From Giardia intestinalis (taxonomy: Eukaryota), in the NCBI GenBank assembly GCA_000002435.2, contig CM018789.1: 64,000 nt of DNA. One strand, written 5' to 3'. A program made the translations under genes and the position numbers. Shown piece after piece: positions 4,284 to 31,228 of this stretch. The notes under the pieces are model-generated. The model saw only the letters and a list, made by a program, of their open reading frames with translations, was not told the DNA's origin and searched no databases. How positions within the stretch are numbered: position 1 is the stretch's first letter; each line of letters begins with the position of its first letter.

Positions 4284-4379
4284 GCGACCAGAACCAGAAG
4301 CCCGACATCTGGCTCGTCGACAGATGCAAGGCGGTGGGCGTGGGTGTCATCCAGCAACCGCATGGATACCACAGCGAGA
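4284..4379 (+). repeat. 96-bp dispersed repeat, copy A (inverted partner at 17141-17242)
   Basis: gcgaccagaaccagaagcccgacatctggctcgtcgacagatgcaaggcggtgggcgtgggtgtcatccagcaaccgcatggataccacagcgaga is identical to the reverse complement of 17141-17242, apart from one extra CCAGAA hexamer in copy B. It translates to ...DQNQKPDIWLVDRCKAVGVGVIQQPHGYHSE in both ORF-track entries. Confidence 0.9.
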
Positions 4380-5431
4380 GGACAGGGGCACAGGGACGTT
4401 CTCAACCATCTACGGGATGGACGGCTCCCCACTCCAAAGACGCCAGGAAGGCCCCGCGGGCACTGAGAGCCCTGTCCGGCCCTCGCTGTCCATGTGGCAG
4501 CCTAGTACCCAGGGACTCCTTCTGTCAGCCTATTTCCAACCACCAAGTGGACCCACTGTGGGACCAGAGTGACTACGGCTGAGAAGGAGTGCTGGCCCAG
4601 AACCACGGTCAGACGGACACCGAGGGGCAACAGAGGCGACTATCATCACTCCCAGAGAGCCACAGTGACAGGAGACATATCCGCTCTTAGGGGAAGCAAC
4701 GACCAGAGATAAATAACGACGCTCCCTCATAGCGAGCCACGGCCCCACCCACTTTCTATTGCCAGGATAGACTCTCACCGAACCAGGACCACCAGTGGAG
4801 CCGAAGTCCCAACGGCTACTGCCGTTGAGTCAGGTGGAAGCGATGTAAAACGAACGCAAAGGCCCGCCCTCGCCTGTTGTGAAGGATGGCTAAAGGGGAG
4901 GTCGCCACTAGCGGACCACACGAGGCTGTGAGAAGGTCAGAACTCTGGACAGACTGGCGTGCGAGCATCTCTGGAGGCACGCTCGGCCTGGGCACACGCC
5001 TGTGGAGCGATCGAAGGAGGCACCAGGCTCTGGACGTACTGATAGAGGAAACCTTTCACTATGCTATCCGCGATCACCCTTCCCTCCGGCCGTGACCAGG
5101 AAGCGGGGAGGCCCGCTCGTGAGGTCTCCGAATGCACCTGCAGGCCCCAGCAGCACAGCGCACTTCTCATGAGAACTGGACGGCATCCAATTTTCGCTTT
5201 TGGAGTCCAGAGAGGTGAGTGAGCAGAAGAGCCCCAATAAAAGGCTCCATTCACAAACTGGACCCAGTGCAGAATCTATCGTTGGCAATCATAGTACTAG
5301 CACTAGTTGCTTTTTACGCGTTGCTTCTGGATATGCGGGTCTTCAATGTATGGTACAGGCACTCTGCAACTGACTAGTGTGTCCGGCCACAGGCAAGCAC
5401 CGAAAAACATCAGCAATTAAAAATCTACTAA

Positions 5432-13900: not shown

Positions 13901-14652
13901 GGTCTTGTTGTACCGCGATATCCAGGATCTCAGGACATACGTCCAGGAGTGAGGACCCGAGTAATAATGGCAGGCTGAGTAAGAACAGACTTCACCCGCA
14001 CATTGGGCGCCGACAGCTTGCCGGTTCCTCAAAGGAAATTTATCAGCTATCCAGTACACAATCGTCCATTCGCACTCTGGGGAACGCAGCATTCTGTTTG
14101 GTTGTTCACCATAGGGTCGGTTGTATGGAGCCCATGATCAGCAGGCGGATGAGCCTCCTCATCATCCTGGCTAGCTAGGGACGATTCTTTGGCGCTAAAG
14201 GTCACAAAGGGACGAACGAGTGCCAGCGAGCAAGAACATCAGAATGTGCTACAGCTGCTTTTATGGGACTCGTACCCTCAAGAAGGTATACTTATCTCTG
14301 CTCTGACCTACCAAGCTAGATCATGGCCACTGTGCCTCTTGGGATACGACACGTTACAGCACTTGCGTACCCAGATGATGCTGCACAAAAAGTTGTATTA
14401 TCGACTGATGCCTCGCGTTGGTCATTCATCAAGCCCGGGGGCCATGGAGAGGGCCACACCACCAGCGAGGTCTAGTCCCATCAAACCTTCTTGTTACATG
14501 ATACAGAGTGCAGCGAACAGGGGAGTAGGAACCTCTCAGGATTGTGGCACTTAGGGTTCTACCGCCCAGCCGTGCCACATGGATGTCAAGGGTCAGCCAC
14601 AATCACTCCGCTTAAGGATTTATTTTTGTACTTCTCATTGACTACAGACACA

Positions 14653-15862
14653 ATGCCATGCAACATAGACCTCAGATACCGTATCTTACTCCTCGTTGCA
14701 GCGATGATGACGGCAGGCGCCCTTGGTATTCTTCAGAAAGGTCTCATACTATATGAAGGGCAAGAATGTCGAAGGCCAGCTGGAGCTGTACGACAAGGTG
14801 TGGATTCCAGCCTTTTTCATGTTCCTTGGTGAGAGTATCGGCCTGGGAGTTTTCTGCATAAAGCGGTGCGTCATTAAAAGGAGCATCTCCAAATCGTCTC
14901 CTGATATGGCTGCCGATAGTGCAACGAACTTCGAGCAAGAGAATAGCACAGCCCTCAAGACATCATGCACACATCTGTCTATGCAGAGGCAGCTCCCTCC
15001 GCAGATCGCTCGAAAGAAAGCAAGGAAGCTTATGGTGGGTCCACTGCCTTGTTGGAAGTTCGTGCTTGCGACGGCCTTCAACACTGCTATGCTATACATC
15101 TCGGTGTCTGCGGCCCAAAGCCTTCGGGGGTTCACCATCGTCTTTTGCCAGATCCTTGCAATCCCCCTGTTAAAAAGGAGACCGGAGAGGTGGGAGATCA
15201 TGGGTGTTTGCTTTGCGTTTCTAGGACTTCTCCTAGTAGACGTCGCCATTGCGATCCAGAAGCGGGAGCACGGAGACACCCTCGAGACTACCATAGGGGT
15301 CCTGCTCGTCGTCGGCGGACAGATCTTCTCTGCCACGCAATACCTTCTAGAAGAGAAGACCTTCAAGAGCCGGGCCATAGACTCTCTGCTAGGTGTTGGC
15401 TGGGAGGGTGTCTGTGGCGTGATCCTGTCGCTGTGCGTTGCGTGCCCGCTGGCACACGTGATGCCTGGCAGCGACCACGGGAGCCTGGAGAACTATGCCA
15501 ACTCGCTGTACATGTCCTTTGTCAACGGAAACATACTAGCCATGAATCTCCTATATGCGCTATCCATTCTACTCTTTAAATGGTCCGGGCTGGTTGTCGG
15601 GAAGATTCTTACTTCAACCCATCTGTCTCTATTTGATAACTTGAGATCACTGCTGATATGGGCCATCATGGTCATAGTATACTACTCGACGAGGCACTAC
15701 AGTCGCCCATATGGAGAGCCCCTCACTCCGTATTCGCTTCTGGAGCTGCTGGGGTTCGGTGTACTAGTCTTGGGCATCGTGGTCCACAACAATGTTCGTG
15801 GACTCGGCGTAAGGGCCACTTGCAGGGGTGAGCGGAGGATAACGCCGGGCTCCCCCAAATAA
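14653..15862 (+). CDS. SLC35F6-like (DMT/EamA superfamily) multi-pass transporter; reading frame interrupted by an apparent +1 frameshift near 14745-14755
   Basis: Matches human SLC35F6 segment by segment: VWIPAFFMFLGESIGLGVF~FQHPFLQAVGMFLGEFSCLAAF; QSLRGFTIVFCQILAIPLLKRRP~QMLRGAVIIFTGLFSVAFLGRRL; EKTFKSRAIDSLLGVGWEGVCGVILSL~EKFVYKHNVHPLRAVGTEGLFGFVILSL; FDNLRSLLIWAI~LDSLRTVVIWAL. TM1 (MPCNIDLRYRILLLVAAMMTAGALGILQKGLILY) is encoded from ATG 14653 in frame 1, and the rest in frame 2. The ORF-track start at 14723 is a TTG; the first in-frame ATG of the long frame is 14753. Confidence 0.55.
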
Positions 15863-17140: not shown

Positions 17141-17242
17141 TCTCGCTGTGGTATCCATGCGGTTGCTGGATGACACCCACGCCCACCGCCTTGCATCTGT
17201 CGACGAGCCAGATGTCGGGCTTCTGGTTCTGGTTCTGGTCGC
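17141..17242 (-). repeat. 96-bp dispersed repeat, copy B (102 bp including a CCAGAA hexamer expansion)
   Basis: Reverse-complement identity to 4284-4379. An additional weaker match (aagttcaaYgcagagct, encoding KFNAEL) lies contiguous in copy A (about 4240) but about 750 bp away in copy B (about 16380). Confidence 0.9.
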
Positions 17243-17494
17243 CGGGCTGGTCTGATCTCTGGCCCATGTTGCATTCCCCGAGACACAGAGGCAACGATTG
17301 CACGGGGCCCCTAGTTGTCGCTTTGCACCAGTGGAAGGGAGCCCCTGCTTGCCGTCTACGATCATCCCATCCTCAGAGAGCCTGGCCTGGGCGGGCTCTG
17401 AGTGCGCCTCAGGCGGGCCCAGCAGCACAGCCCTAGAGGTGGCCGGGTGGAGTGAATCATCGTGGGATGCACGTAAGGAGCGCACAGGTCCGGG

Positions 17495-20400
17495 GCGCCC
17501 GAACAGGCCCAGCCCTCGCACCGGCTCCCCCGGTCGCCTCAGTCGCGGCGCTAACAGGAAGACGCGTGTCCTGTTCGACGACCCGGCACACGGACCGACG
17601 GCCGGCGGACCGCATGGCAAGGTGGAATAAAAAGTTTGAAACGTCGGCGCTCGCGCGAATCGGAATGCGGCGTTCTCCGGGCTGGGAGGCCGTGCGTGCG
17701 GGCATTACCTCTAGCATGTTCCTCACCACGGTCCCAGGCTGATGGGCGGCCGAGGCCTTGTCAGCGTCACGCACGCCTCTTGCCGGCATTGGGCCGCCCG
17801 GGATCGTACATAGGCAGGGCTGCAGAGGCCTTCCGCGGCTCCTGCGGGCAGTCGCCTGCTGCGGAGAGCACGCCCAGCTTGGGAGCTCCTCAGGATCACC
17901 GTGCAGGTCATCGAGACCGGTTCGACGGGCCCACGTTGAAGGAGGCGCATGGGCCGGTGAGCGTGCCGTCTTTGCAGGCAGGCTCTCGCTGGCCGGGTGG
18001 CGGGGCTCTCCTGTATCTCCGCCGGAGGACGCCCTATCTACTGGCAGCATTTCCACAGTTGCAACGCTACAGGGGCGGGCTGCAGCTCTTCCGCAGGACC
18101 TCGTCGGACGGGCAGTTGGCGTACTCTCACGTGCACTCGCAGGAGCTCCCCGCCCTCGTAGAATAGCACCCCGCGCGCCCCAAAAAGCCAAATCGAAATG
18201 CAGCAGGTGCAGTCGACTCTTCTCGGGTTGTGGCGCTGATCCAATCAGACGCCGCGGCACGCCCCGAGCAGGCCTCGTCCAGCAGCGGGTGCTCTAGCCG
18301 CGCCCCTGAGGCAAGTCTGCTTCTGACCCCGTCCCTGTGCCGACCCCAGCGAGCCCCCGACGGCGCTGGAGAAGGAGCGCCTTGCGGAGCCCCTTACTGG
18401 CCCCTCGGTGCAGGAGGATCCCCGGATTACCGATTTGCGTGCGGCAGCCGGCGGGGCGCCCCGGGCCATCCTTACATCTACATGTCCAGCGAGTGCCGCA
18501 GCGGGCCGAGATGAAGCCGCGGGCGCCGATGCCGGGGCGCTGGCCACGGAGGCTGCAGCGTTAGTAGCCAGGCGAACCCCTTGGTTCGCGTTTTAGTTTT
18601 TGGGGTCCCAAGTTAGCGCCCCCGGAGCAGCACCGGCTGTACACTGTTCACTGCACTCGGTCGGCCGGATGGTGTAGCAGCTACGGCTACTCTAATTACG
18701 GCGCTTGATGTGTTTACTGCTGGGGGGTGCTGCTCTCCGTTCTACGGGGTGGCAGGAGTGCTCCCGCGTGCAGGTAGTACCAGTGGACGCCCCTCAGCTG
18801 CCGGGCCGGAGCGGCTCTTGGATGGGTGGACCTATCCTCCTCCGTGCGGCCGTCCCTCGGGCCTAGTAGACGTGCCTTGCTGTGTCCCGCAGCCCGGATC
18901 CTTGCCTTCAGACGCCAGCACGGAACTCTCTAAATTTGTCCTCCTGTGACATCCTATGCTGCCATGCACACTTCGTTTCTAGCAGGCCCTTAAGGTTGCA
19001 GCCCAGGACTACCGGCCCCCACATCATCAGATATGGTTGCTGACTGCGGCCGCCTACGCAGTCGCAGCTGGTTCCGCACTGGCCCTGTATCGGTAGCCTT
19101 GGCCTGCATCGCCGGTGTGCGGCCCACTTCGCTCTGCGGGTGTACCACGTATAGTTACCAGCCTCGTGATGTGGTGCACCGCTGGGGCAGATCCTAGCGG
19201 CAGTAATCCTGCAGCCCCATGTGGTCGTCTGGCAGTGGATGCGAAGGTTTGCAGGCGGGAGCGGAAGGTCGGGATGCTCTTGCCCACGTCACCGGGCGCC
19301 GTGGTCAAGGGCTCCGAAGACATGCCCAGCCCTCCGCTGGACGAGGATCGATGGGCCGCTCAGAGCCCCGCAAGCTGCGTCCAGGCTGGTATTAGGTGGC
19401 CCAATGACGTGGCGACGGGAGTTGTGAGGCGAGACCGCCACACGCCGAGCGTCGGGCCATTGCTACACCGACTCCCCAAAGGGACACACTCAGCCCGGGG
19501 CCGGATGTCCGCTTGTGTCCCAGAGTGAGCGCCTTGCATGCTTGCCGCGAGCAGCTATCTAGGGCTCGAGGTTAGCGGGCGGGCTCCAGCTATCGCCCCC
19601 TCATTGTCTCGGCCACCGGGACAGAACTCCCTTCTCCGGAGACGTGATCCTCGGGCCTGTGTGGCTCCCCTTCTTTGGAACGGGCTGGCTGTAGCCCTTC
19701 CGTATCATAGCCAGTGCTCTCTGAGGCCCTGATGACGCGCGGCTGTGTCTTGCACGTGTCGCTACAGTGGGACCCGCGCCTGTCCGTCCTTGCGTCGCCT
19801 ACGGTGTAACCAGGGGCGACCCGGGCACGCTCCTATCGGCACATGGCGCCCTCCGCTGTGCTGGCTCCTGACGGCAGCCCACTCTACCGGGTCTGGTACT
19901 GCAAGGACCACCTATAGTGGGGGCAGGCGGGTGCGTCTACGCATCACCTCTGCGCTGTAGACAGTAGACGGCACGCCATCAGTTAGCACAAGATCCGGTC
20001 CGCGTCTTCTCCGGCTCTGTATCCATCGGGCTATGCTAACCATTACTATAGCCGCCCTATGACAGAACTAGGCCTTGCTTCGCAGAAATCCAAAAACAGG
20101 GGTCGTAGATCGGGCGGCGCGGGTCGCCCTCGGGCTAATCCACTGCCGCGGCACGGCCACTGCGGGCCCGTCCAGGTGGCCATGGAGCTGGGGGCGGCCT
20201 CGGTCGAGGATCATCGCTCGACGCGCCTCTCCTGCAGCGGCCAGGGCGTCCCGGCCGGTCTCGGGCGACGAGGACGCTATTGAGGCACGGAGAAGTACGG
20301 TGGCCCACAGGATTCGGCGGGGGGCCGGATCGCGCAGAGCTGGTTGAGGAGACTAGAGCGCCAGCCAGGCCGGGGCGCCGCCGGGGAGGCTGATATGGGT

Positions 20401-20722
20401 TTAGGTTACAGCGGGGGCATCTGGGCCGTCGTCTGCTGGCTCCAGGGCAGAAGAGCGGTAGACATGCCGGGCGGTCCCGCTGCTTATTTTTGGATTTTCT
20501 ACTCTTTCACGCTGCATAGAAGGGGTGAGATCTTAGGAAAAACCGGGCTTTGAGGGTCTACTGGCATCGTGAAAGAGCAGTAGGCTGTACAGTGACGCGT
20601 TTACTACCTAAGTGGATGCCACTTACGCCTTCCCCCGACAGATGAACCACCAGCAGAGGAACCCTATGAGGCCCCCGACGACGACGATGGCTGCGACGGA
20701 GATCCCCGCGATGGCGCCAGTG
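17495..20722. repeat. Left arm of a 3.2-kb-arm inverted repeat (partner 25515-28742); symmetry x <-> 46237-x
   Basis: ORF-track entries are mirrored with a constant coordinate sum of 46237 (e.g. 20344-20553+ vs 25684-25893-; 18230-18514+ vs 27723-28007-). The arms are indel-free from about 17640 to 20620, with only a few amino-acid substitutions visible (E/K; PSR/TFR; A/T, P/H, V/M). The arm is about 68% GC with no recognisable gene. The inner end overlaps the last ~35 codons (~100 nt of conserved tail) of the VSP CDS. Confidence 0.9.
20599..20622 (-). promoter_or_regulatory. Conserved VSP 3' end / extended polyadenylation signal, mirror copy for the minus-strand VSP
   Basis: Exact reverse complement of 25615-25638 (the two positions sum to 46237). 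Confidence 0.75.
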
Positions 20723-22266
20723 CTGAGGCCGCTCTTGTTCATACTGTCTCCTCCAGTGTCTCCGCCGGTGCCATCGTCAGTCTTTTGTTGTGTCAAATAA
20801 CAAGTAACAGCCCCGGAAGAACTGGCTGGCTCCTTGCAGCTCAGACAGTTTGGTACGCCTTTAATGCTTCCATCATCCTTGTCGCATGCTACGCACTTTG
20901 TTCCGGACTTATAGTATCCCGGGAAGCACTCCGAACACTGCTGTGAAGGAGCACTTCCTGTACATTTTGAGCAGCCAGCTGGACATGTCGGACAGACCTT
21001 TCCACTGGGCTGTTGTCCGTTCGCGCAAGTAGTGCACTCTCCATTGTTAGCTGCCGTGCAGACAGCCTTTCCAGGAAGCTTCGCCACACCATAGCATCCA
21101 CCAGAAATGAGGGCGTATGCTCCTGTGCACGCCGTGCACTTCCCGCTTGCAGCTGTGCATACACTCGCGTCTCTCCCAATTTTTACTGCTGTGCACACTC
21201 CGTCGATTGGGGCATATCCCTCCTTGCACTGGGCACAGTACTTCGCGCCCCCCACGTCAGCCGTGCACTGCCCGTCTGCACAGTTGGTAATGAACGCACC
21301 AGTGCATTCCTTGACGCACCTCCCAGTCGCTCCGTTGGCCTCATACAGAAGGGAGTGTCCAGGGTAGCAGGCCGTGCAGGAGGTCTCCTTGTCGTCGGTC
21401 TGGCAGCTGGCACACGACGAGTGGCAGGGGGTGCAGACGTTTTGCTTGTCGTATGTCCCGGCGGGGCAGTTGTCCATGCACTCGTCCTTGAGGGGGCTGA
21501 CCTTCTTACTAGCATGACACTTAGAGCAGGTGACCTTGACTCCTGCTTCAGGAGCAGGTGCTCTAGGTATGCATAGTTCGCAGTCTTCTATGCCACCGCT
21601 TCCAGCTTCACTACAGCCAGCACACTTCTTAACACCGTCGACGATTGTCGGGAAGAAGCCCTCGCCGCATCCTGATTCCGCGACGCACTCCATAACGCCT
21701 CTATCTATTTTCAAGTAGAGGTCTGCGGCACATTTGGTGCATATGGCGGCCTTAGTGCCACCAATTGATAGTTGCCCTGGCTGAGTACAGGTGACGCACT
21801 CGGCCACGCCCGTGTACTTCTTATCGCCAGTAAGCGTCACGCCCGTTGTATCCCCGCACGAAACAACCGAGTCGTGTGCGTTATCAGTGCCCGGCGGCAG
21901 GAAGTATCCTTCCTTAGCCTGTGTGCACACTCCAGCATTTGCTGTTTCACACATCGTGTTGCCAGGTGCCTGGCTATCCTTGTAGCATCCGCCCTTGTAC
22001 ATGAAGGACTTATTAGCGCACTGTGTGCACTTCCCATCTTGCTTCCGGGTACACTCGTTATTGTCTGCTGAGCACACTCCGTCCGTTGGGGCAGATTGAG
22101 ACCCACCGCCGTTGCACTGCGAGCAGTATTTCTTGCCGTTGACGACGGCGCTACAGGCCTTGCAAGTGTTGGGCTCACTGCTAGCTACCTCTTCGCATTC
22201 GTCTCCGGCTTGCGCTGCCCGTACTAGCTCGAGTGCGAGACCGGTCAGCAAAAATGCATAGAACAT
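20623..22266 (-). CDS. vsp: Variant-specific surface protein (VSP), 547 aa
   Basis: Signal peptide MFYAFLLTGLALELVRAAQA, numerous CXXC motifs, GGCY motif (MYKGGCYKD), and C-terminal TM plus the invariant tail GLIGFLCWWFICRGKA*. The ORF track extends to a TTG at 22293; the first ATG is at 22264-22266. Confidence 0.9.
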   Translation of the reverse strand: MFYAFLLTGLALELVRAAQAGDECEEVASSEPNTCKACSAVVNGKKYCSQCNGGGSQSAPTDGVCSADNNECTRKQDGKCTQCANKSFMYKGGCYKDSQAPGNTMCETANAGVCTQAKEGYFLPPGTDNAHDSVVSCGDTTGVTLTGDKKYTGVAECVTCTQPGQLSIGGTKAAICTKCAADLYLKIDRGVMECVAESGCGEGFFPTIVDGVKKCAGCSEAGSGGIEDCELCIPRAPAPEAGVKVTCSKCHASKKVSPLKDECMDNCPAGTYDKQNVCTPCHSSCASCQTDDKETSCTACYPGHSLLYEANGATGRCVKECTGAFITNCADGQCTADVGGAKYCAQCKEGYAPIDGVCTAVKIGRDASVCTAASGKCTACTGAYALISGGCYGVAKLPGKAVCTAANNGECTTCANGQQPSGKVCPTCPAGCSKCTGSAPSQQCSECFPGYYKSGTKCVACDKDDGSIKGVPNCLSCKEPASSSGAVTCYLTQQKTDDGTGGDTGGDSMNKSGLSTGAIAGISVAAIVVVGGLIGFLCWWFICRGKA

Positions 22267-23544
22267 TGCGGCCCGCGCAGCCCTGTCACGCAAGGTTATG
22301 GCAGCTCCACTTACCGCGCTTATACCCTTTCATGACGCTTGCCTATGCTGTATGACACACTGACAGAGATTACCCTTCATGTGGGCCTGCGTTGAGAGGT
22401 GGGGCCGTGCTGATTCCACCTTCGTGTGACTGGCCGGCTGTGAAACGGACCGATCGATGTAAGCTTCCTCCCTTGTGTTGCAAGGCATACCATAGTAACG
22501 GCTACACGGCGGTCATGTTTCGCTCTTCGCTGTGATGTGAGGGTTTCCTGGCGACCAGCTCTCCTGCTGTGCCAGTCACAAGGTCTGCCAAGGGACTCCT
22601 AGATTCTCCTGAATGCCTGACCAGCGACCCGATGGAGCCAGCCGTGCAATGTCCAGCAGCCCCGAGCCACGGGTCACCAGTGCATGCCTCGAACACTGTC
22701 CCCCCGAGATTCCACTGTTGAAGCCCGGCAGGAGCGATGCCCCGTGGAGGATGGCTACGTTCTATCGCGACGCACTGTGACTGTCCCCCTGCTCAGGGAC
22801 GCCGTCTGTCATACGACCCAACCCGCTTGCACCACAGACTATTGGTGAACCCGCCCCCTGTCGACTCCCACGCACTGAAGGGCCCTACTGACCACTTTAG
22901 AGACCGTCCTTCGCCGGTCGCAGGCCCCTCTAAAGGAACTGGTGCCTCACCTGTTCCTATCTGGGATGGTTCCGCTACGGTGGACAGCCTTCGGGCACGC
23001 AATGATGTCCCAGCACCCCTAAAATGGTGGTTCCCCACTTGACCGGCTCTAGCCAGCCGCACCACAGCGTCTCCCAGACACGAGGGGTACCTCCGCGCAC
23101 TAGAGAAGAGGCAACACTGGGGAGGCTTGATGCTATTCGGGCTGCCCGCTCCCTGCTGGCGAGGGGTAGTAGGGCCGTAGACAAACCAAACCGTTGCTAT
23201 GCCTCTGGTCGGGTGCCCGGTTCCTCGAGTCGTGGCCGAGGGTGATCATCCAGCCGATACGCAGGGCGGCCACTGATACTGCCATCAATGAAATGCTCTT
23301 GTGCGCGAAACTCTCCTAGCAAGGCTAGTCCTCAACTAGCTGGCCAGAGGGCGGGCTACGTGCTATCTGAGAGGATAGCTAAATCTATGTTTTGTCGTAA
23401 CGGGAAGGTTGGCACCGGATCAGCTCTTTGGGTCTTTGGCATCTTTGACGCGATATCTAACAAGTGCGTTACTGAATGGCTACTTAGAGAATAGAGTCAC
23501 TGGTGAAATGTCTGCTTACGCTAGCAGTGCCTCGATGGGCCTCA

Positions 23545-25614
23545 ATGTTATTAACAGCCTTTTATATTGTGCTGGGCTCCTTTGCAGCACCTTGCCAGCA
23601 AGACGGAGACCACATAGTGACCTGTCAGGTCAATAAGTGCGAGACGGTCGGGTCAGCCGAGATTTGTACCGAGTGCAAGGTCGGAGGCGTCCCGGTCGAC
23701 GGCTTCTGCCGACCCTTCGGCTCCATCCAGGCCGCGGCGGCCGGGTGCACCAAAGCAGACGGGGCTGCTCTCGACAAGATGACAGCAACCTGCGAGAAGT
23801 GCGGCGACGGGTACTTCCTCTTCATGGGCGGGTGCTACAAGACAACCGACGGGCCCGGCAGCGAGATATGCACAAAGGCTGAGGGAGGACTGTGCACTGA
23901 GTGTAAGACAGCTAACGGCCTGTTCAAGAACCCGGCTACACCTCAGAAACCTGGTAGCGAGTGCATCTTGTGCCATGATGCCACAAATAGAAACGGGGTC
24001 ATGGGAGTGGATAACTGTCTCAAGTGCACGGCACCTGGTGGCAATACAGGAGCGGCCACGTGTACTGAGTGCATGGCTGGAACGTATAAGAAGAGTGATA
24101 CAGAGTGTGCTGCATGCCACAGCGACTGTGCCACATGCAGTGGAGCCAATCAAAATCAGTGCACATCGTGCGAGACAGGGAAGTACCTGAAAGGGACTGA
24201 GTGTGTAGACAAAGGTACGTGTAACAACAATCACTACCCCGATGACACTAGCATGACCTGCGTTGCCTGTACTGTCCTCGATGCCAACTGTGCAACATGC
24301 TCATTTGATAGTGCAACGGCAAAGGGCAAGTGTCTGACTTGTAATTCAAATAAGATTCCCAGGACAACCCTCGACGGAACCTCGACCTGTGTGGAAAATT
24401 CTTATGCTGGGTGTCAAGGAGCTGATAACGAGCTGTTCATGAAGGAGGACCAATCGGCGTGCTTATTATGCGGAGATACTAAAGACGTGGATAATAACAA
24501 TAAAGGCAAAGAAGGGTGTAAGACATGCACTAAGAGTGCAGATGGCTCCCCTCCAACTTGCACAGCTTGCCTCGATGGATACTTCTTTGAACAGTCATCA
24601 AACACTTGTGAGGCTTGTGGGGCCAACTGTGTCACATGTTCAGCTAAAACAGATGAGACTAAATGTAAAACGTGCAAGGAGGGGTTCTTCCTGGCCGGCA
24701 CCGGCGAAGGAAAGTGCATCTCGTGCGAGAATGGTAATGATAGTGGCTACAGCGGGCTTGCAGGATGCCTCTCTTGCACAGCCCCAGCCGCCCCGGGCCC
24801 GGCCAGCTGCAACCGCTGCAAGATCGGCTACAAGTTACAGGGAACAACGTGTGTGAAGACCTGCGAGGATACAACGGCTTGTGGGGGTACTTCTGGCGCC
24901 TGTGATGCTATAGTAATAGATGATAAGGGCAACACAAAGCATTATTGTTCCTACTGTGGGGATAGTGGTAAGTTCCCTATTGATGGTATATGCACTGATA
25001 GCAAAGGAACAAATGCTGGGTGTACTGATCACATTTGCAGCTATTGTGCTCAAGGGTACTTCCTATACATGGGTGGCTGCTATAGTACAGCAAGTCCACC
25101 TGGCAACTATATGTGCAAGACAGCTGAAGGTGGCAAGTGCACTGCTGTTAATGATGGTAATAGGTACTTCATAGTCCCAGAAGCAAAGGCTACTGATCAG
25201 TCTGTGTTGGCTTGTAGTAACCCCCTAGGCACACTAGTAGGCACTGATAGTGCTGCTAAGGCATATGTGGGGGTACTCAACTGTTCACAGTGTAAGGCCC
25301 CAGCAGCTCTGACTGAGGCTGGTATGACTGCTGCTGTCTGTACCTCCTGTGACAGTGGTAAGAAGCCCAACAGGGATGGCAGTGGGTGTGTGACATGCTC
25401 TGTGGGTGATTGCAAGAGCTGTGTGATGGATGATGTGTGTGGGGAGTGCAGTGATGGGTACAGTCTGGAGGGTGGTAAGTGTGTGTCCTCTGGCAGTAAT
25501 AGGAGCGGGCTCTCCACGGGGGCCATCGCGGGGATCTCCGTCGCTGTCATCGTCGTCGTGGGGGGCCTCATAGGGTTCCTCTGCTGGTGGTTCATCTGTC
25601 GGGGGAAGGCGTAA
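23545..25614 (+). CDS. vsp: Variant-specific surface protein (VSP), 689 aa
   Basis: Signal peptide MLLTAFYIVLGSFAAP, CXXC repeats, GGCY motifs (FLFMGGCYKT, FLYMGGCYST), and C-terminus ...GLIGFLCWWFICRGKA*. The ORF track starts at a GTG at 23503; the first ATG is 23545. Head-to-head with the other VSP; the starts are 1.28 kb apart. Confidence 0.9.
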   Translation: MLLTAFYIVLGSFAAPCQQDGDHIVTCQVNKCETVGSAEICTECKVGGVPVDGFCRPFGSIQAAAAGCTKADGAALDKMTATCEKCGDGYFLFMGGCYKTTDGPGSEICTKAEGGLCTECKTANGLFKNPATPQKPGSECILCHDATNRNGVMGVDNCLKCTAPGGNTGAATCTECMAGTYKKSDTECAACHSDCATCSGANQNQCTSCETGKYLKGTECVDKGTCNNNHYPDDTSMTCVACTVLDANCATCSFDSATAKGKCLTCNSNKIPRTTLDGTSTCVENSYAGCQGADNELFMKEDQSACLLCGDTKDVDNNNKGKEGCKTCTKSADGSPPTCTACLDGYFFEQSSNTCEACGANCVTCSAKTDETKCKTCKEGFFLAGTGEGKCISCENGNDSGYSGLAGCLSCTAPAAPGPASCNRCKIGYKLQGTTCVKTCEDTTACGGTSGACDAIVIDDKGNTKHYCSYCGDSGKFPIDGICTDSKGTNAGCTDHICSYCAQGYFLYMGGCYSTASPPGNYMCKTAEGGKCTAVNDGNRYFIVPEAKATDQSVLACSNPLGTLVGTDSAAKAYVGVLNCSQCKAPAALTEAGMTAAVCTSCDSGKKPNRDGSGCVTCSVGDCKSCVMDDVCGECSDGYSLEGGKCVSSGSNRSGLSTGAIAGISVAVIVVVGGLIGFLCWWFICRGKA

Positions 25615-28600
25615 GTGGCATCCACTTAGGTAGTAAACGCGTCACTGTACAGCCTACTGCTCTTTCACGATGCCAGTAGACCCTCAAAGCCCGGTTTTTC
25701 CTAAGATCTCACCCCTTCTATGCAGCGTGAAAGAGTAGAAAATCCAAAAATAAGCAGCGGGACCGCCCGGCATGTCTACCGCTCTTCTGCCCTGGAGCCA
25801 GCAGACGACGGCCCAGATGCCCCCGCTGTAACCTAAACCCATATCAGCCTTCCCGGCGGCGCCCCGGCCTGGCTGGCGCTCTAGTCTCCTCAACCAGCTC
25901 TGCGCGATCCGGCCCCCCGCCGAATCCTGTGGGCCACCGTACTTCTCCGTGCCTCAATAGCGTCCTCGTCGCCCGAGACCGGCCGGGACGCCCTGGCCGC
26001 TGCAGGAGAGGCGCGTCGAGCGATGATCCTCGACCGAGGCCGCCCCCAGCTCCATGGCCATCTGAACGTGCCCGCAGTGGCCGTGCCGCGGCAGTGGATT
26101 AGCCCGAGGGCGACCCGTGCCGCCCGATCTACGACCCCTGTTTTTGGATTTCTGCGAAGCAAGGCCTAGTTCTGTCATAGGGCGGCTATAGTAATGGTTA
26201 GCATAGCCCGATGGATACAGAGCCGGAGAAGACGCGGACCGGATCTTGTGCTAACTGATGGCGTGCCGTCTACTGTCTACAGCGCAGAGGTGATGCGTAG
26301 ACGCACCCGCCTGCCCCCACTATAGGTGGTCCTTGCAGTACCAGACCCGGTAGAGTGGGCTGCCGTCAGGAGCCAGCACAGCGGAGGGCGCCATGTGCCG
26401 ATAGGAGCGTGCCCGGGTCGCCCCTGGTTACACCGTAGGCGACGCAAGGACGGACAGGCGCGGGTCCCACTGTAGCGACACGTGCAAGACACAGCCGCGC
26501 GTCATCAGGGCCTCAGAGAGCACTGGCTATGATACGGAAGGGCTACAGCCAGCCCGTTCCAAAGAAGGGGAGCCACACAGGCCCGAGGATCACGTCTCCG
26601 GAGAAGGGAGTTCTGTCCCGGTGGCCGAGACAATGAGGGGGCGATAGCTGGAGCCCGCCCGCTAACCTCGAGCCCTAGATAGCTGCTCGCGGCAAGCATG
26701 CAAGGCGCTCACTCTGGGACACAAGCGGACATCCGGCCCCGGGCTGAGTGTGTCCCTTTGGGGAGTCGGTGTAGCAATGGCCCGACGCTCGGCGTGTGGC
26801 GGTCTCGCCTCACAACTCCCGTCGCCACGTCATTGGGCCACCTAATACCAGCCTGGACGCAGCTTGCGGGGCTCTGAGCGGCCCATCGATCCTCGTCCAG
26901 CGGAGGGCTGGGCATGTCTTCGGAGCCCTTGACCACGGCGCCCGGTGACGTGGGCAAGAGCATCCCGACCTTCCGCTCCCGCCTGCAAACCTTCGCATCC
27001 ACTGCCAGACGACCACATGGGGCTGCAGGATTACTGCCGCTAGGATCTGCCCCAGCGGTGCACCACATCACGAGGCTGGTAACTATACGTGGTACACCCG
27101 CAGAGCGAAGTGGGCCGCACACCGGCGATGCAGGCCAAGGCTACCGATACAGGGCCAGTGCGGAACCAGCTGCGACTGCGTAGGCGGCCGCAGTCAGCAA
27201 CCATATCTGATGATGTGGGGGCCGGTAGTCCTGGGCTGCAACCTTAAGGGCCTGCTAGAAACGAAGTGTGCATGGCAGCATAGGATGTCACAGGAGGACA
27301 AATTTAGAGAGTTCCGTGCTGGCGTCTGAAGGCAAGGATCCGGGCTGCGGGACACAGCAAGGCACGTCTACTAGGCCCGAGGGACGGCCGCACGGAGGAG
27401 GATAGGTCCACCCATCCAAGAGCCGCTCCGGCCCGGCAGCTGAGGGGCGTCCACTGGTACTACCTGCACGCGGGAGCACTCCTGCCACCCCGTAGAACGG
27501 AGAGCAGCACCCCCCAGCAGTAAACACATCAAGCGCCGTAATTAGAGTAGCCGTAGCTGCTACACCATCCGGCCGACCGAGTGCAGTGAACAGTGTACAG
27601 CCGGTGCTGCTCCGGGGGCGCTAACTTGGGACCCCAAAAACTAAAACGCGAACCAAGGGGTTCGCCTGGCTACTAACGCTGCAGCCTCCGTGGCCAGCGC
27701 CCCGGCATCGGCGCCCGCGGCTTCATCTCGGCCCGCTGCGGCACTCGCTGGACATGTAGATGTAAGGATGGCCCGGGGCGCCCCGCCGGCTGCCGCACGC
27801 AAATCGGTAATCCGGGGATCCTCCTGCACCGAGGGGCCAGTAAGGGGCTCCGCAAGGCGCTCCTTCTCCAGCGCCGTCGGGGGCTCGCTGGGGTCGGCAC
27901 AGGGACGGGGTCAGAAGCAGACTTGCCTCAGGGGCGCGGCTAGAGCACCCGCTGCTGGACGAGGCCTGCTCGGGGCGTGCCGCGGCGTCTGATTGGATCA
28001 GCGCCACAACCCGAGAAGAGTCGACTGCACCTGCTGCATTTCGATTTGGCTTTTTGGGGCGCGCGGGGTGCTATTCTACGAGGGCGGGGAGCTCCTGCGA
28101 GTGCACGTGAGAGTACGCCAACTGCCCGTCCGACGAGGTCCTGCGGAAGAGCTGCAGCCCGCCCCTGTAGCGTTGCAACTGTGGAAATGCTGCCAGTAGA
28201 TAGGGCGTCCTCCGGCGGAGATACAGGAGAGCCCCGCCACCCGGCCAGCGAGAGCCTGCCTGCAAAGACGGCACGCTCACCGGCCCATGCGCCTCCTTCA
28301 ACGTGGGCCCGTCGAACCGGTCTCGATGACCTGCACGGTGATCCTGAGGAGCTCCCAAGCTGGGCGTGCTCTCCGCAGCAGGCGACTGCCCGCAGGAGCC
28401 GCGGAAGGCCTCTGCAGCCCTGCCTATGTACGATCCCGGGCGGCCCAATGCCGGCAAGAGGCGTGCGTGACGCTGACAAGGCCTCGGCCGCCCATCAGCC
28501 TGGGACCGTGGTGAGGAACATGCTAGAGGTAATGCCCGCACGCACGGCCTCCCAGCCCGGAGAACGCCGCATTCCGATTCGCGCGAGCGCCGACGTTTCA

Positions 28601-28742
28601 AACTTTTTATTCCACCTTGCCATGTGCATTCGCCGGCCGTCGGTCCGTGTGCCGGGTCGTCGAACAGGACACGCGTCTTCCTGTTAGCGCCGCGACTGAG
28701 GCGACCGGGGGAGCCGGTGCGAGGGCTGGGCCTGTTTGGGCG
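25515..28742. repeat. Right arm of the inverted repeat (partner 17495-20722)
   Basis: Reverse complement of the left arm; near-identical apart from SNPs and a single indel near the outer boundary (about 28640). Confidence 0.9.
25615..25638 (+). promoter_or_regulatory. Conserved VSP 3' end / extended polyadenylation signal (GTGGCATCCACTTAGGTAGTAAAC)
   Basis: AGTAAAC (Giardia AGTRAAY poly(A) signal) lies 18 nt after the stop codon, within the characteristic CTTAGGTAGTAAAC VSP 3' motif. Confidence 0.75.
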
Positions 28743-30013
28743 CCCCCGCGGCTAGCGCTGGCCACTCCTGCGCCCACTGGAGGGACGTCGCAGGCTCTCG
28801 CTGCCTTCTACCACGAACGGGTCCGCCGCATCCCTCCGAGTGGCAGGGCGACAGTCCGCGGCAGCATGCACGCACTCGAGGTCCATCTTATATGCTGCAG
28901 ACCATACTGGGAGACTACTTCTTGCCCGGAGCTACCAGCCTGGACCAGCAACTTCTAGCACGACTACGCGTCTCCTCGTCGAGTTGTGCAGTTGTTTTGG
29001 AAGCATCCTCCGAGGGTTGGAATGGTACCCAACGCTACCTTCTAGTGCAGCTTGAAGCTATCCTTACCTCGGCTCACCGCTCCACCTGGATAGCCTTAGG
29101 AGTCTACAAGCTACGCCTGATCTACCCATCGAGCCACTGCCCGTTAGTACCATGAACATCTGGTCCTTCCACTGTAGAACGCTACCTATGGGCATGGAGA
29201 CTACTGGCATTGCTAATACCACCGGGTCCTTATTTACTGCCTCTCCTTAGGTTCTCATATCGTCTCGTCCATCCGTCACCTATAGTGTGGGGATGTGCGC
29301 CTCGTTGCTTCATCTGTATACCGAAGTTCTCAATACGATGGGAAGGCACTTTGTCCAGCAAACCATCCTATTGATCTGCTGGTTGTATGCATCGTGATAT
29401 CACAACCTTTGGGAACGTGTATGTAACGGCTAACATGGTACTGCCCTTCCATAGCCGCAAGGGAGCTGAGCTTCATGCGTGGCCATCCCCAGTTCTTGCT
29501 CGGTCCCAGGCGTTTCGAGTTTTGTCAGAAGGATTGCGCTATCCTGCACGCTCGTATATCGGTCCTGCATGCACCATCTCCCTTTTAGACGCCATTCTCA
29601 CCGACTCCATTGTGTTGTCTGCTACCTCGCCTGTATTGTGGCTCTAGGAAGGCCACTGGAGTCCCGTGCATAAGTGAAGTGGATTTGCTTTCTTTCATTG
29701 TGCAGGACGTCAAAAATTTGCACTCTCATACTTTCGCACACTCACCCGCTTTTTTGTCATCCTATCCATACCCCGGCTATCTCAGTGGTTGCTCTGGACA
29801 ACCAGGCGATAGAGAATGTCGATGAAAGCAATCATATAACTGGCAGGATCGTCCCTTTGTCCGGTTAATTCTCCCAATCCCATGACTCCCTAGCTGTAGT
29901 AGGTACTGTATTAGTTCCTTTACTAAGGCGTACATTTTCCTCAGCACATAGCTTATAAGTTTACAGTTTTCTTAATTCCGTTAGCCAACTCAGCAAGTAG
30001 GATATCTTAAGCG

Positions 30014-31228
30014 TTAAGAACCATCAGGGACCTCTACGATGAAGTCCTTGAGTCGCTTATCACCGTTGGTCGCAGAGCAGGTCCGCTTGAGCTCAGATTC
30101 TATCACCTCAACCATACTATTCCAAGCCGCAGAGTCTTGGGTATTGTAGTATTGACAGAGATCGGTCTTATCTATGCTAGCTAGTGATAGGCTAGTGGAT
30201 CGTGGCTCAGATGCAAGGCCCGAGCGTTCCCACAGTCGAAATAGACTGCCCGAAGCTTCAGAAGAGACCTGAATCTGCGCGTCTGTCATTGGAATTAGAG
30301 CCGATTGGTGCGATTCTGTACGCATGTTATCAGCCGTTGTTTCTAGAATAGAATAGTTAGCAATAGTAGAATAGCCAGAGTAATGCGGGACAGTCGGCTT
30401 GTGGCCGAGAGTATCTGGTACGCGCAGGTTGGCTTGAAGAGACATCATGTTAAGTACTTCTGTACTCCGCGAGGCACTCTTGGCGGAAGCATACCCAGAA
30501 GTAATGTACGGAAAGAACTTAACAGGAAGTAGTAGTATCAGGATGAAGACAAACACATTGTAAGTAGAGTGGGAATCCGATGCAGTGGGAGAGCTCCCGA
30601 AGCCTGTATAGGTATCTGTACCTGTTAGTGACCCAGAGTCATATGCCCCCTGCGGATAAACTGAGTCACTTGGTGGCGGCAGTGGTAGTACGTCGCCATT
30701 CAATGGCAGTTGGAGGGGTCCACTGAGGCAATTATCATAAGCATAGTTATCTCCATAGTAGCTCTCGCCTGGACGCACGGGGCATTCATGGCCCTGCGTG
30801 GTAGCTATAAGTGTGTCCTGGTTCAGAGTATTATAGCCCACATTTCGTGAATGAGAGATTGTCCTAATGAACATCAAGATTCCGTCTATGCTACGAAGTA
30901 TCTTTTCTGTGTGAACGTTGAGAATCTTCTGGAGGGCGGCGTTTTCTTCCCTCAGTCGCAGGTTATCTTCCCGCAGCTTTTGCAGATCCTCCTTGAGGAG
31001 TATCTGATCCTCCTTGACCCGCTCCCGGTACCGCTTGGCGGCCAGGCGGCCATTCTCCTTCCGCTTGTCAGTGTCCAGATCCGGTTTACACTTGTACGGC
31101 TCCGGTCCCCACGTCCCCGAGCCAGGATCAGAGGCCAGGTGCCCATAGTAAGGTTGTTGTGGGGACCCGACCCTGCCCAGCTCGGAGGAAACCCCCAAAG
31201 AGGGATCAAATGTAAAGGGTAGTGTCAT
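30014..31228 (-). CDS. bZIP-like (basic region + 4-heptad leucine zipper) protein with a downstream hydrophobic segment; candidate membrane-tethered transcription factor
   Basis: 404 aa. Basic region KRKENGRLAAKRYRERVK is followed by a zipper ILLKEDL-QKLREDN-LRLREEN-AALQKIL with Leu every seventh residue. A hydrophobic stretch NVFVFILILLLPVKFFPYI lies about 150 aa downstream. ATG at 31226-31228 is preceded by AAAAATAAATG. Confidence 0.5.
   Translation of the reverse strand: MTLPFTFDPSLGVSSELGRVGSPQQPYYGHLASDPGSGTWGPEPYKCKPDLDTDKRKENGRLAAKRYRERVKEDQILLKEDLQKLREDNLRLREENAALQKILNVHTEKILRSIDGILMFIRTISHSRNVGYNTLNQDTLIATTQGHECPVRPGESYYGDNYAYDNCLSGPLQLPLNGDVLPLPPPSDSVYPQGAYDSGSLTGTDTYTGFGSSPTASDSHSTYNVFVFILILLLPVKFFPYITSGYASAKSASRSTEVLNMMSLQANLRVPDTLGHKPTVPHYSGYSTIANYSILETTADNMRTESHQSALIPMTDAQIQVSSEASGSLFRLWERSGLASEPRSTSLSLASIDKTDLCQYYNTQDSAAWNSMVEVIESELKRTCSATNGDKRLKDFIVEVPDGS

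What the first reader, a model, noticed from the sequence alone, without database searches (positions are those of the whole stretch)
17495..28742. 11.2-kb palindromic structure: two different VSP genes head-to-head inside near-identical 3.2-kb inverted arms
The arms 17495-20722 and 25515-28742 are reverse complements with an exact, indel-free register over 17640-20620 (constant coordinate sum 46237) and only a handful of SNPs; one indel sits near the outer edge. Each arm runs from inside the last ~35 codons (~100 nt of conserved TM+CRGKA tail) of a VSP, through the conserved VSP 3' motif, into about 3 kb of GC-rich non-coding DNA. The two VSP bodies differ entirely (547 vs 689 aa). This suggests a recent palindromic duplication or ongoing gene conversion of the flanks with independent cassette replacement. 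The structure could extrude a cruciform, act as a recombination substrate for VSP repertoire change, and read-through from either gene would yield RNA complementary to the other gene's 3' end. That is relevant to the proposed RNAi-based control of VSP expression.
Basis: seen in the sequence. Interest (0 to 1): 0.75.

Follow-up and report, generated by a model that had tools for sequence, protein, structure and literature searches.

The report
Mirror-image flanks around Giardia VSP pair

Summary
Arms 17492-20739 and 25498-28746 are reverse complements: 3249 aligned columns, 99.4% identity, one 1-nt indel, and a 2.5-kb stretch with no difference at all.

The window is the telomeric end of Giardia intestinalis WB-C6 chromosome 1. 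The two genes are vsp180 (VSP AS12, GL50803_137614, 547 aa) and vsp181 (689 aa). Adam et al. 2010 already listed them as a non-identical head-to-head pair.

Each arm starts inside the conserved TM/CRGKA tail, crosses the stop codon and the AGTAAA signal, and continues for 3.13 kb of 65% GC DNA. I found no ORF, Pfam, Rfam, tRNA, VSP or homologue signal in that DNA.

A second lineage carries the same gene pair with its own identical inverted tails and flanks, only 58% like WB's. Two other lineages have a 66-75% homologue of the arm at the bZIP side, once as a direct repeat.

Best reading: homologous recombination or gene conversion seeded in the conserved VSP 3' end, recent in WB.

The genes diverge, so read-through RNAs would be identical in sense. 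A cruciform is implausible across a 4.76-kb spacer.

Verdict: a new variant of a known kind, of moderate interest.

The parts
17492..20739 (.). Left arm of the inverted repeat. The outer end at 17492 is abrupt. The inner end lies inside the VSP-A tail codons.
25498..28746 (.). Right arm of the inverted repeat. It is the reverse complement of the left arm at 99.4% identity.
17613..20118 (.). A 2506-nt stretch of the left arm with no difference from its partner at 26119-28624.
17608..17612 (.). Small substitution and 1-nt indel patch (partner 28625-28630). It is the only register shift between the arms.
20119..20176 (.). Cluster of 4 substitutions in 58 nt (partner 26061-26118). The left arm keeps the state seen in the L008 outgroup, so the right arm is derived here.
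20623..22266 (-). VSP-A, 547 aa. Same protein as vsp180, VSP AS12, GL50803_137614 and KAE8301207. CRGKA tail; Pfam VSP.
23545..25614 (+). VSP-B, 689 aa. Same protein as KAE8301208 / XP_037901531 and, by inference from position, vsp181. CRGKA tail; Pfam VSP.
22267..23544 (.). Asymmetric 1278-nt intergenic region between the two start codons. It has no inverted symmetry. It is 86-90% conserved in loci L005 and L008.
22262..22274 (-). Initiator motif GGGCCGCAATGTT spanning the VSP-A start codon.
   Evidence: INR CAATGTT is listed for vsp180
23537..23549 (+). Initiator motif GGGCCTCAATGTT spanning the VSP-B start codon.
25612..25640 (+). Stop codon plus the conserved VSP 3' motif (…CTTAGGTAGTAAAC), with AGTAAA at 25632-25637. 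Generic VSP similarity ends here, at the start of the arm's non-coding part.
20597..20625 (-). The same stop codon and 3' motif for VSP-A (AGTAAA at 20600-20605 on the minus strand).
14753..15862 (+). Flanking SLC35/EamA-type transporter gene (KAE8301206). It is transcribed toward the left arm.
30014..31228 (-). Flanking bZIP gene (KAE8301209). It is transcribed toward the right arm. Synteny with other lineages holds up to about 29805.

Best explanation
This is a genuine inverted segmental duplication (a palindrome with a 4.76-kb asymmetric spacer). It lies at the boundary between the subtelomeric domain and the unique core of Giardia intestinalis WB chromosome 1, and it surrounds the already catalogued head-to-head pair vsp180/vsp181.

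The duplicated unit is not a gene. It is the 3' end of a VSP (last ~38 codons, stop codon, AGTAAA signal) plus 3.13 kb of gene-free, 65% GC downstream DNA.

Proposed mechanism (inferred). When two VSP genes lie head-to-head, their family-conserved tails already form a short inverted repeat. Homologous recombination started in that tail (gene conversion, or break-induced or synthesis-dependent copying) and ran outward. It copied one gene's downstream flank to the other side in mirror orientation and stopped abruptly at 17492/28746. The same kind of exchange has since kept or re-made the identity of the two sides.

In WB the event is recent. The arms differ by 0.3% in the non-coding part, and the WB arm type differs from the type shared by two other lineages.

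Direct consequence (shown). The two otherwise unrelated VSPs have an identical 3' end: the last 17 codons, the stop codon and the poly(A) signal. By inference they also share the stop-codon-straddling miR2 target site that was tested experimentally for VSP AS12. Each also has an identical long gene-free flank. No dedicated function of the palindrome itself is shown.
For: Structure:
- Real and far beyond chance.
- The inner boundary lies inside the conserved tail and fades gradually. The outer boundary is abrupt.
- A control VSP from an unrelated locus (L010) resembles these tails only up to 26 nt after the stop codon, so family conservation cannot explain the arms.

Arms look non-coding:
- 19-33 stop codons in each of the six frames.
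- No Pfam hit at E<=1, no Rfam hit at E<=1, no tRNA.
- No VSP remnant by tblastn.
- No homologue of the longest ORF in 5.8 billion proteins, and no arm ORF in public protein sets.
- Protein accessions KAE8301206-209 run consecutively across the region.

Recombination signature across lineages:
- Contigs L005 and L006 carry the same pair (94% / 90% / 80-88% identity to VSP-A, the intergenic region and VSP-B).
- Both contigs end in exact inverted repeats of exactly one assembler k-mer (141 and 55 nt). These cover the last 60 nt of CDS plus 81 nt of flank.
- That tail and flank are 100% identical between the two genes of that lineage but only 58% identical to WB's.

Unit behaviour in other lineages:
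- In L008 the homologous arm plus VSP tail is a perfect 3824-nt direct repeat. The arm aligns colinearly with 89% of the WB arm at 66-75% identity.
- L007 and L008 are 96% alike across genes, flank and arm, but only 45-70% like WB outward of about 29805. The arm is therefore not intrinsically hypervariable, and WB carries a replaced, paralogous-type segment.

Literature:
- Gene-conversion tracts in sub-assemblage AI have a median of 3.3 kb, are GC-rich and are enriched for VSPs (PMC12669663).
- Inverted VSP duplications are common in WB (PMC2996952, PMC7000408).
Against: - I could not read the rest of the WB genome or any long-read assembly of another isolate. The copy number of the arm, and the full length of the arms in the L005 lineage, are unknown; only >=141 nt is shown there.
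- The direction of copying (right to left) rests only on the positional conservation of an arm next to bZIP in L007 and L008.
- A single recent duplication, without any continuing conversion, fits the WB data alone equally well.
- The non-random placement of the differences could reflect a third-party conversion patch or a mutation cluster rather than arm-to-arm conversion.
- L005, L006 and L008 are metagenome contigs of unknown assemblage. L008 may contain a mis-join.
Confidence: 0.6

Rival explanations
1. One-off, recent inverted duplication, for example a replication template switch or a subtelomeric repair event. There is no continuing arm-to-arm exchange and no biological role. The arms are alike only because they are young.
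For: - Only 0.3% non-coding divergence between the arms.
- WB differs from L007 and L008 over the whole region outward of about 29805. This suggests a recent lineage-specific replacement of the chromosome end.
- Where an outgroup is available, most differences are derived on one arm, as expected for simple mutation after duplication.
Against: - A second lineage has the same gene pair with its own, different, internally identical inverted tail and flank. This requires at least two such events at the same pair, or homogenisation.
- The differences are strongly clustered (P about 1e-4).
Confidence: 0.22
2. The locus began as one of Giardia's identical head-to-head VSP pairs, with gene and flanks duplicated in mirror image. 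One or both gene bodies, with their promoters, were later swapped for unrelated VSPs.
For: - Seven identical head-to-head pairs exist in WB (PMC7000408).
- VSP mosaicism is documented (PMC2996952).
- The L005 VSP-A orthologue has a different C-terminal ~270 nt from WB VSP-A, which shows that exchanges occur inside these genes.
Against: - No residual inverted symmetry anywhere in the 4.76-kb centre except the 13-nt initiator.
- The genes share 28% identity and belong to different clades.
- The same two bodies are paired in another lineage with different arms. So it is the arms, not the bodies, that changed.
- In known identical pairs the flank identity reaches only 139-729 nt.
Confidence: 0.08
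3. The palindrome is a selected regulatory device. The arms act as gene-free GC-rich insulators or chromatin boundaries. Alternatively, inward transcription from the convergent neighbours (SLC35, bZIP), or one transcript spanning the whole structure, gives hairpin or antisense RNA that feeds the RNAi/miRNA control of VSPs, here including the encystation-dominant vsp180.
For: - Both neighbours point toward the palindrome.
- vsp180 dominates in cysts (PMC4807828).
- Its 3' end is a tested miR2 target (PMC2583053).
- The palindromic architecture recurs in a second lineage although the arm sequence differs.
Against: - Read-through of the VSPs themselves gives same-sense RNA.
- Each gene has a canonical AGTAAA signal 18 nt after the stop codon.
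- No structured-RNA family was detected.
- In L008 the same unit is a direct repeat, not an inverted one.
- No expression data could be examined.
Confidence: 0.07
4. Assembly artefact: a collapsed, mis-joined or artificially mirrored repeat in the PacBio assembly.
For: Inverted VSP duplications broke the earlier assembly and were once suspected to be artefacts. Short-read contigs stop before the arms on both sides.
Against: - The centre is asymmetric and holds two distinct genes that the 2007 Sanger assembly already placed head-to-head.
- The arms differ at 10 non-coding sites, including an indel.
- Independent assemblies of another lineage show k-mer-length terminal inverted repeats. This is the signature of a true inverted repeat in an assembly graph.
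Confidence: 0.03

Closest known systems
Giardia WB 'other head-to-head' non-identical vsp pairs (Adam et al. 2010, PMC2996952), of which vsp180/vsp181 is a listed example
   Same: It is the same pair. vsp180 (AS9/AS11/AS12, GL50803_137614, 547 aa, clade II, chromosome 1, HH) is followed in the list by vsp181 (clade I, chromosome 1, HH). The paper notes that such pairs usually combine different clades.
   Different: The paper describes about 3 kb between the members and says nothing about long shared 3' flanks. Here the start codons are 1278 nt apart, and the notable feature is the 3.2-kb inverted identity outside the genes.
Giardia inverted pairs of identical vsp genes (vsp1267; 14 pairs in Adam 2010; 19-20 pairs in Xu 2020 and Rodriguez-Walker 2022)
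   Same: - Mirror-image duplication around VSP genes, with near-perfect identity and an abrupt end of identity.
- Gene-poor, GC-rich surroundings.
- Presumed origin by duplication and recombination.
- Breaks short-read and Sanger assemblies.
   Different: In those pairs the duplicated unit is the whole ORF plus only 139-729 nt of flank, and the unique part is the 2.2-3.8-kb spacer. Here the ORFs are unrelated (28% identity). The duplicated unit is the tail plus 3.1 kb of downstream DNA, and the arms point outward from the genes.
Large palindromes homogenised by arm-to-arm gene conversion, for example the human Y-chromosome palindromes P1-P8 (my own knowledge: Rozen et al. 2003)
   Same: - Kilobase-scale inverted arms of more than 99% identity around a unique spacer.
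- Greater identity within a genome than between lineages (partial evidence here).
- GC-rich arms, compatible with GC-biased conversion.
   Different: The genes sit in the spacer, not in the arms. The arms are non-coding and about 3 kb rather than 9 kb to 1.4 Mb. Conversion is inferred from 141 nt in one other lineage, not demonstrated along the arm.
Conserved 3' ends as downstream homology blocks for antigen-gene conversion: the Trypanosoma brucei VSG C-terminus/3' UTR (my own knowledge) and the Borrelia hermsii downstream homology sequence (PMC6011951, seen)
   Same: A family-conserved 3' segment marks the recombination boundary. The variable body on one side and the flank on the other can be exchanged independently.
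   Different: Those systems move a silent gene into an expression site to switch antigen. In Giardia, switching occurs without DNA rearrangement (Adam 2010). Here the exchange shapes the repertoire and flanks rather than expression.
Inverted-repeat (hairpin RNA) loci that feed RNAi
   Same: Long inverted repeat close to genes that are said to be under RNAi/miRNA control.
   Different: The arms lie downstream of divergent genes, past their poly(A) signals. No promoter reads through both arms, and same-sense RNAs are expected. Membership is not supported.

Membership tests
Giardia variant-specific surface protein genes (Pfam PF03302) | Cys-rich CXXC ectodomain, a single C-terminal TM helix and an invariant CRGKA end | tested here: met
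   Both translations end in ...FLCWWFICRGKA. PF03302 E-values are 8.4e-84 for VSP-A and 5.4e-54 for VSP-B. Both are exact matches to the annotated WB proteins KAE8301207 and KAE8301208.
Giardia variant-specific surface protein genes (Pfam PF03302) | Initiator PyAATGTT at the start codon, and the conserved 3' motif with AGTAAA just after the stop codon | tested here: met
   CAATGTT is present at both start codons and is listed as the INR for vsp180/181. CTTAGGTAGTAAAC lies 12-25 nt after both stop codons.
Giardia inverted pairs of identical vsp genes (Adam 2010; Xu 2020) | Two VSP ORFs in inverted orientation on one chromosome | tested here: met
   VSP-A is on the minus strand and VSP-B on the plus strand. 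Their 5' ends face each other.
Giardia inverted pairs of identical vsp genes (Adam 2010; Xu 2020) | The two ORFs are identical in nucleotide and protein sequence | tested here: not met
   28% amino-acid identity. Only the last 52 nt are identical. The pair is not in Table 2 of Xu 2020.
Giardia inverted pairs of identical vsp genes (Adam 2010; Xu 2020) | Flank identity ends abruptly 139-729 nt from the ORF, with 2.2-3.8 kb between the ORFs | tested here: not met
   Identity runs 3131 nt past the stop codons and does end abruptly. The ORF starts are 1278 nt apart. There is no 5' flank identity.
Palindromes maintained by arm-to-arm gene conversion (Y-chromosome type) | Arms more alike within a genome than the same arm is between lineages | tested here: inconclusive
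   Met over the 141 nt that could be seen in the L005 lineage: 100% within that lineage, 99.3% within WB, 58% between them. The rest of the L005 arms and the left arm of other lineages could not be retrieved.
Palindromes maintained by arm-to-arm gene conversion (Y-chromosome type) | Kilobase-scale arms of more than 99% identity around a unique spacer | tested here: met
   Arms of 3.25 kb at 99.4% overall and 99.7% in the non-coding part. The spacer is 4758 nt with no internal symmetry.
Transposon with terminal inverted repeats, or composite transposon | Target-site duplication flanking the outer ends, and a transposase or RT coding remnant | tested here: not met
   The sequences just outside 17492 and 28746 are unrelated as direct repeats. 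No Pfam domain was found in any frame of the arm. Sensitivity to badly decayed remnants is limited.
Cruciform-forming palindrome | Inverted arms separated by no spacer or a very short one | tested here: not met
   4758 nt lie between the arms. The requirement for a short spacer comes from established DNA biophysics and was not computed here.
Hairpin or antisense RNA locus feeding RNAi | Transcription that produces complementary RNAs from the two arms | not testable with these tools
   Geometry excludes it for read-through of the two VSPs: 99.7% same-sense identity against 29% as complement. Inward or spanning transcription needs RNA data.

The most novel reading that the evidence does not exclude
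The palindromic architecture itself may be under selection at the vsp180 locus. Two lineages keep the same unrelated gene pair between mirror-image tails and flanks, although the flank sequence has been exchanged. That could mean Giardia needs both genes to carry the same 3' regulatory end (miR2-type site, poly(A) signal) and symmetric gene-free GC-rich boundaries. Possible purposes are the encystation-specific activation of vsp180, or production of inward antisense or hairpin RNA from the convergent neighbouring genes. Recombination between the arms could also flip the 4.76-kb centre and exchange which gene faces the telomere.
Probability: 0.1. Interest if true: 0.7.

Novelty: new variant of a known kind. 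Interest (0 to 1): 0.4.

Why it matters
Giardia changes its surface coat among roughly 130-300 VSP genes. How the repertoire evolves, and how one gene is chosen, are both open questions.

This locus shows three things in one place:
- The family-conserved VSP 3' end acts as a recombination boundary.
- Kilobases of downstream DNA can be copied in mirror image from one VSP to an unrelated neighbour.
- Flanks and gene bodies evolve as separable modules. The same bodies occur with different arms in another lineage, and a homologue of the arm (66-75% identical) occurs as a direct repeat in a third.

The locus holds vsp180, the VSP reported to dominate in cysts, whose 3' end was the tested miR2 target. 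It is therefore a convenient natural test case. Two unrelated VSPs share an identical 3' end and identical flanks, so differences in their expression must come from the 5' side or the gene body.

The result also matters practically. Reads and small RNAs from the arms and tails multi-map, and vsp181 was missing from the older annotation. Both can distort expression studies of this pair.

Tried and rejected
Searches on the arm that found nothing:
- Coding or RNA content: six-frame Pfam scan, Rfam at gathering threshold and at E<=1, tRNA scan, internal repeats, tblastn with both VSPs for pseudogene remnants.
- Homologues: search of the longest arm ORF against 5.8 billion proteins, and exact look-up of 12 arm and flank ORFs.
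- Retrotransposon remnant, as found between some head-to-head pairs: no RT domain detected. Rejected with limited sensitivity.
- Transposon: no target-site duplication.
- Residual symmetry of the centre: none.

Retrieval attempts that failed or led nowhere:
- WB chromosome DNA through the exact-protein index. The NCBI Giardia genome is not indexed there.
- JGI metagenome scan for VSP-A relatives: no Giardia found.
- Loci L002-L004, reached through a 30-aa cluster member, have no similarity to the window and were dropped.
- L009, the left-side neighbour in another sample, stops at window 16937 and does not reach the arm.

Ideas considered and set aside:
- 'Flip-flop' inversion suggested by the old accession order (AS12 numbered near bZIP). 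Rejected as evidence, because vsp181 existed in the old assembly but was simply not annotated.
- The G/C-versus-A/T asymmetry of arm differences (8 of 8). It reduces to about 4 independent events and is not significant.
Full report
**Where the window comes from.** Exact protein look-ups place the window on the 1,485,438-bp chromosome 1 of Giardia intestinalis WB clone C6 (2020 reference assembly). The relevant proteins are KAE8301205 to KAE8301216. Bases 1-811 are the telomere repeat (CCCTA)n. Next comes 4 kb of 66% GC DNA with no recognisable content, and then Cys-rich pseudogene fragments. A block with paralogues on other chromosomes follows (61453-like and SLC35-like genes). From about 30 kb onward the sequence is densely packed, 48% GC core genes. 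The finding therefore sits at the boundary between the subtelomere and the core, 17-29 kb from the chromosome end.

**Observation check.**
- The inverted repeat is real.
- A global alignment of 17492-20739 with the reverse complement of 25498-28746 has 3249 columns, 20 differences and one 1-nt indel, giving 99.38% identity.
- In the 3131-nt non-coding part there are ten differences (99.7% identity).
- Positions 17613-20118 are identical. The remaining differences form a patch at 17608-17612, a cluster at 20119-20176 and singles at 17501 and 20386. A difference-free run that long has P about 1e-4 under random placement.
- The outer end is abrupt.
- The inner end lies inside the coding tails. 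The last 52 nt are identical, and mismatches increase up to 114 nt from the stop codon.
- The genes are 547 aa (20623-22266, minus strand) and 689 aa (23545-25614, plus strand). Both are Pfam VSPs ending in CRGKA, both have a CAATGTT initiator, and they are 28% identical.

**What the arms contain.**
- After the stop codon comes the conserved VSP motif CTTAGGTAGTAAAC, with AGTAAA 18 nt downstream.
- A control VSP from an unrelated, chromosome-internal locus (L010) resembles these genes only up to 26 nt past the stop codon, and its next gene starts 272 nt downstream. The 3.1 kb of identity is therefore not family conservation.
- The rest of each arm is 65% GC, with 19-33 stop codons in every frame.
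- It has no Pfam domain, no Rfam match even at E<=1, no tRNA, no internal repeats and no VSP remnant.
- The longest ORF has no homologue among 5.8 billion proteins, and none of 12 ORFs is in public protein sets.
- The reference annotation has no protein between SLC35, the two VSPs and bZIP, because the accessions are consecutive. Pseudogene features cannot be excluded this way.

**What is already known.**
- Adam et al. 2010 list vsp180 (AS9/AS11/AS12, GL50803_137614, 547 aa, clade II, chromosome 1) and the next entry vsp181 (clade I, chromosome 1, 680 aa). Both are flagged HH. They belong to the class of non-identical inverted pairs, which the authors called 'interesting, but cryptic'.
- Identical inverted pairs number 14 to 20, and their flank identity ends 139-729 nt from the ORFs. 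The present pair is not in the Xu 2020 table of duplicated pairs.
- VSP neighbourhoods are known to be gene-poor and GC-rich. The 2020 paper reports that 6.9% of the genome is duplicated.
- I found no description of the 3.2-kb mirrored 3' flanks of this pair in the library.
- vsp180 is reported as the VSP that dominates in cysts (PMC4807828).
- The stop-codon-straddling site of VSP AS12 was the miR2 target used in reporter assays (PMC2583053). The arms are identical from 52 nt before the stop codon onward, so vsp181 must carry the same site. This is an inference; the site sequence itself was not available to me.

**Comparison with other lineages.**

*L005 and L006.* These are two independent metagenome assemblies.
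- They carry the same head-to-head pair, at 94% (VSP-A), 90% (intergenic) and 80-88% (VSP-B) identity.
- Each contig ends on both sides in an exact inverted repeat of exactly the assembler's k-mer, 141 and 55 nt. An assembly graph produces this when a unique centre is bounded by a true inverted repeat at least k long.
- The repeat covers the last 60 nt of CDS and 81 nt of flank.
- It is 100% identical between the two genes of that lineage and 58% identical to WB. The WB tails are 99.3% alike over the same span.

*L007 and L008.*
- L007 (core 98.5% identical to WB) and L008 (core 95.6%) continue from bZIP into a homologous GC-rich arm.
- They are 96% identical to each other across genes, flank and arm.
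- Both are only 45-70% identical to WB outward of about 29805.
- With sensitive settings the L008 arm aligns colinearly with 89% of the WB arm at 66-75% identity. Its outer limit falls within 14 nt of the WB boundary.
- The arm is therefore not intrinsically hypervariable. WB carries a different, paralogous-type version. By parsimony on the core distances, this is a replacement in the WB lineage.

*Direct repeat in L008.* The arm plus about 270 nt of VSP 3' coding sequence occurs twice as a perfect 3824-nt direct repeat, each copy attached to a VSP-A-like gene.

*Conclusion.* 'VSP tail plus about 3 kb of downstream DNA' behaves as a unit. It has been duplicated in either orientation and exchanged independently of the gene bodies.

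**Mechanism.**

Shown:
- The identity begins inside the family-conserved tail.
- The same bodies occur with different arms in another lineage.
- A homologue of the arm unit occurs as a direct repeat in a third lineage.

Inferred:
- Head-to-head VSPs already carry a short inverted repeat, namely their conserved tails.
- A recombination event started there and proceeded outward, as gene conversion or break-induced/synthesis-dependent copying. It would copy one downstream flank to the other side in mirror image and end abruptly, as seen at 17492/28746.
- The tract length fits the 3.3-kb median reported for GC-rich, VSP-enriched conversion events in sub-assemblage AI (PMC12669663).
- An arm next to bZIP is positionally conserved in three lineages. 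This makes the right arm the more likely template.
- The 0.3% divergence between the arms and the WB-specific arm type indicate a recent event.
- I cannot decide whether identity is being actively maintained or whether the structure is simply young.

- *Antisense by read-through.* The genes diverge, so read-through transcripts leave the centre through their own arms. In gene sense the two downstream sequences are 99.7% identical and 29% as complements. They would be the same sense, not complementary. Both genes also have a canonical poly(A) signal 18 nt after the stop codon.
- *Remaining routes to complementarity.* Complementarity could arise only from inward transcription, and the neighbours SLC35 and bZIP do both point inward. 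It could also arise from a transcript spanning all 11.2 kb. Neither can be tested here.
- *Cruciform.* Extrusion across a 4758-nt spacer is implausible on established biophysics.
- *Recombination substrate.* Recombination between the arms, including inversion of the centre, remains possible. I found no evidence for or against it.

**Artefact?** This is unlikely, for four reasons:
- The centre is asymmetric.
- The pair was already head-to-head in the Sanger assembly.
- The arms differ at ten non-coding sites.
- Another lineage shows the inverted-repeat signature independently.
Spanning long reads would settle it.

**Verdict.** This is a real, well-delimited structure. It is a variant of Giardia's known inverted VSP duplications in which the mirrored unit is the 3' tail plus a long non-coding flank rather than the gene, and it surrounds a catalogued non-identical pair. 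It is moderately interesting as a clean example of modular recombination at the conserved VSP 3' end, and because it involves vsp180. It is not a new kind of system.

Noticed in passing
window 1-811 and 812-5000: The window starts with 160 copies of the Giardia telomere repeat (CCCTA on this strand). Next come about 4 kb of 66% GC DNA with no Pfam or Rfam hit. There is no rRNA anywhere in the window, although rDNA is reported at most WB chromosome ends.
   Followed up: partly
window 5548-7795 (+): Fragments of a Cys-rich VSP/HCMP-like gene, including a TM-like end, lie 5-8 kb from the telomere (tblastn E down to 2.5e-11). The vsp180/181 pair is 20-25 kb from the telomere. Adam 2010 called subtelomeric vsp genes rare.
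   Followed up: partly
window 4287-4379 and 17141-17233: A 93-nt perfect inverted repeat, extending to 157 nt at 86%, links the telomere-proximal GC-rich region with DNA 260 nt outside the left arm. The left flank is therefore built from subtelomeric repeat material.
   Followed up: no
window 16937 and 29598: Short-read contigs from other samples stop 555 nt before the left arm (L009) and 852 nt beyond the right arm (L001, 100% identical to WB). This suggests that repeated or heterozygous sequence extends beyond the palindrome on both sides.
   Followed up: no
window ~29805 (209 nt downstream of the bZIP stop codon): Synteny breakpoint. L007 is 98.5% and L008 95.6% identical to WB up to here. 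Both then drop to 45-70% identity with WB while staying 96% identical to each other. The WB chromosome end distal to bZIP appears to have been replaced by a paralogous segment.
   Followed up: partly
L008 1-1270 / 1258-3664, and 4639-8462 / 9028-12851: This metagenome scaffold joins window-equivalent 32217 (inside a truncated pseudouridine synthase gene) to 22550 (the vsp180/181 intergenic region plus the vsp181-like start). That is a tandem-duplication-type junction or a chimera. The scaffold also holds a perfect 3824-nt direct repeat of arm plus VSP tail with period 4389.
   Followed up: partly
window 17501-20386 versus 25851-28737: At all 8 single-base strong/weak differences in the non-coding arms, the left arm has G or C and the right arm A or T. 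With L008 as outgroup the right arm is derived at 4 clustered sites and the left arm at 1. This amounts to only about 4 independent events, so it is not significant.
   Followed up: yes
L005 3424-5096: The VSP-A orthologue in this lineage is frameshifted: the called ORF stops at 377 aa, although another frame continues to CRGKA. Its last ~270 nt are unrelated to WB VSP-A. The VSP-B orthologue is split into 456-aa and 234-aa ORFs. Both may be pseudogenes, or the contigs may contain errors.
   Followed up: no
window 9417-15862: The 61453-like hypothetical gene and the SLC35/EamA-type gene have near-identical paralogues. These are adjacent on chromosome 2 (KAE8302564/565) and also present elsewhere on chromosomes 1 and 5. 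This indicates a multi-copy subtelomeric block.
   Followed up: no
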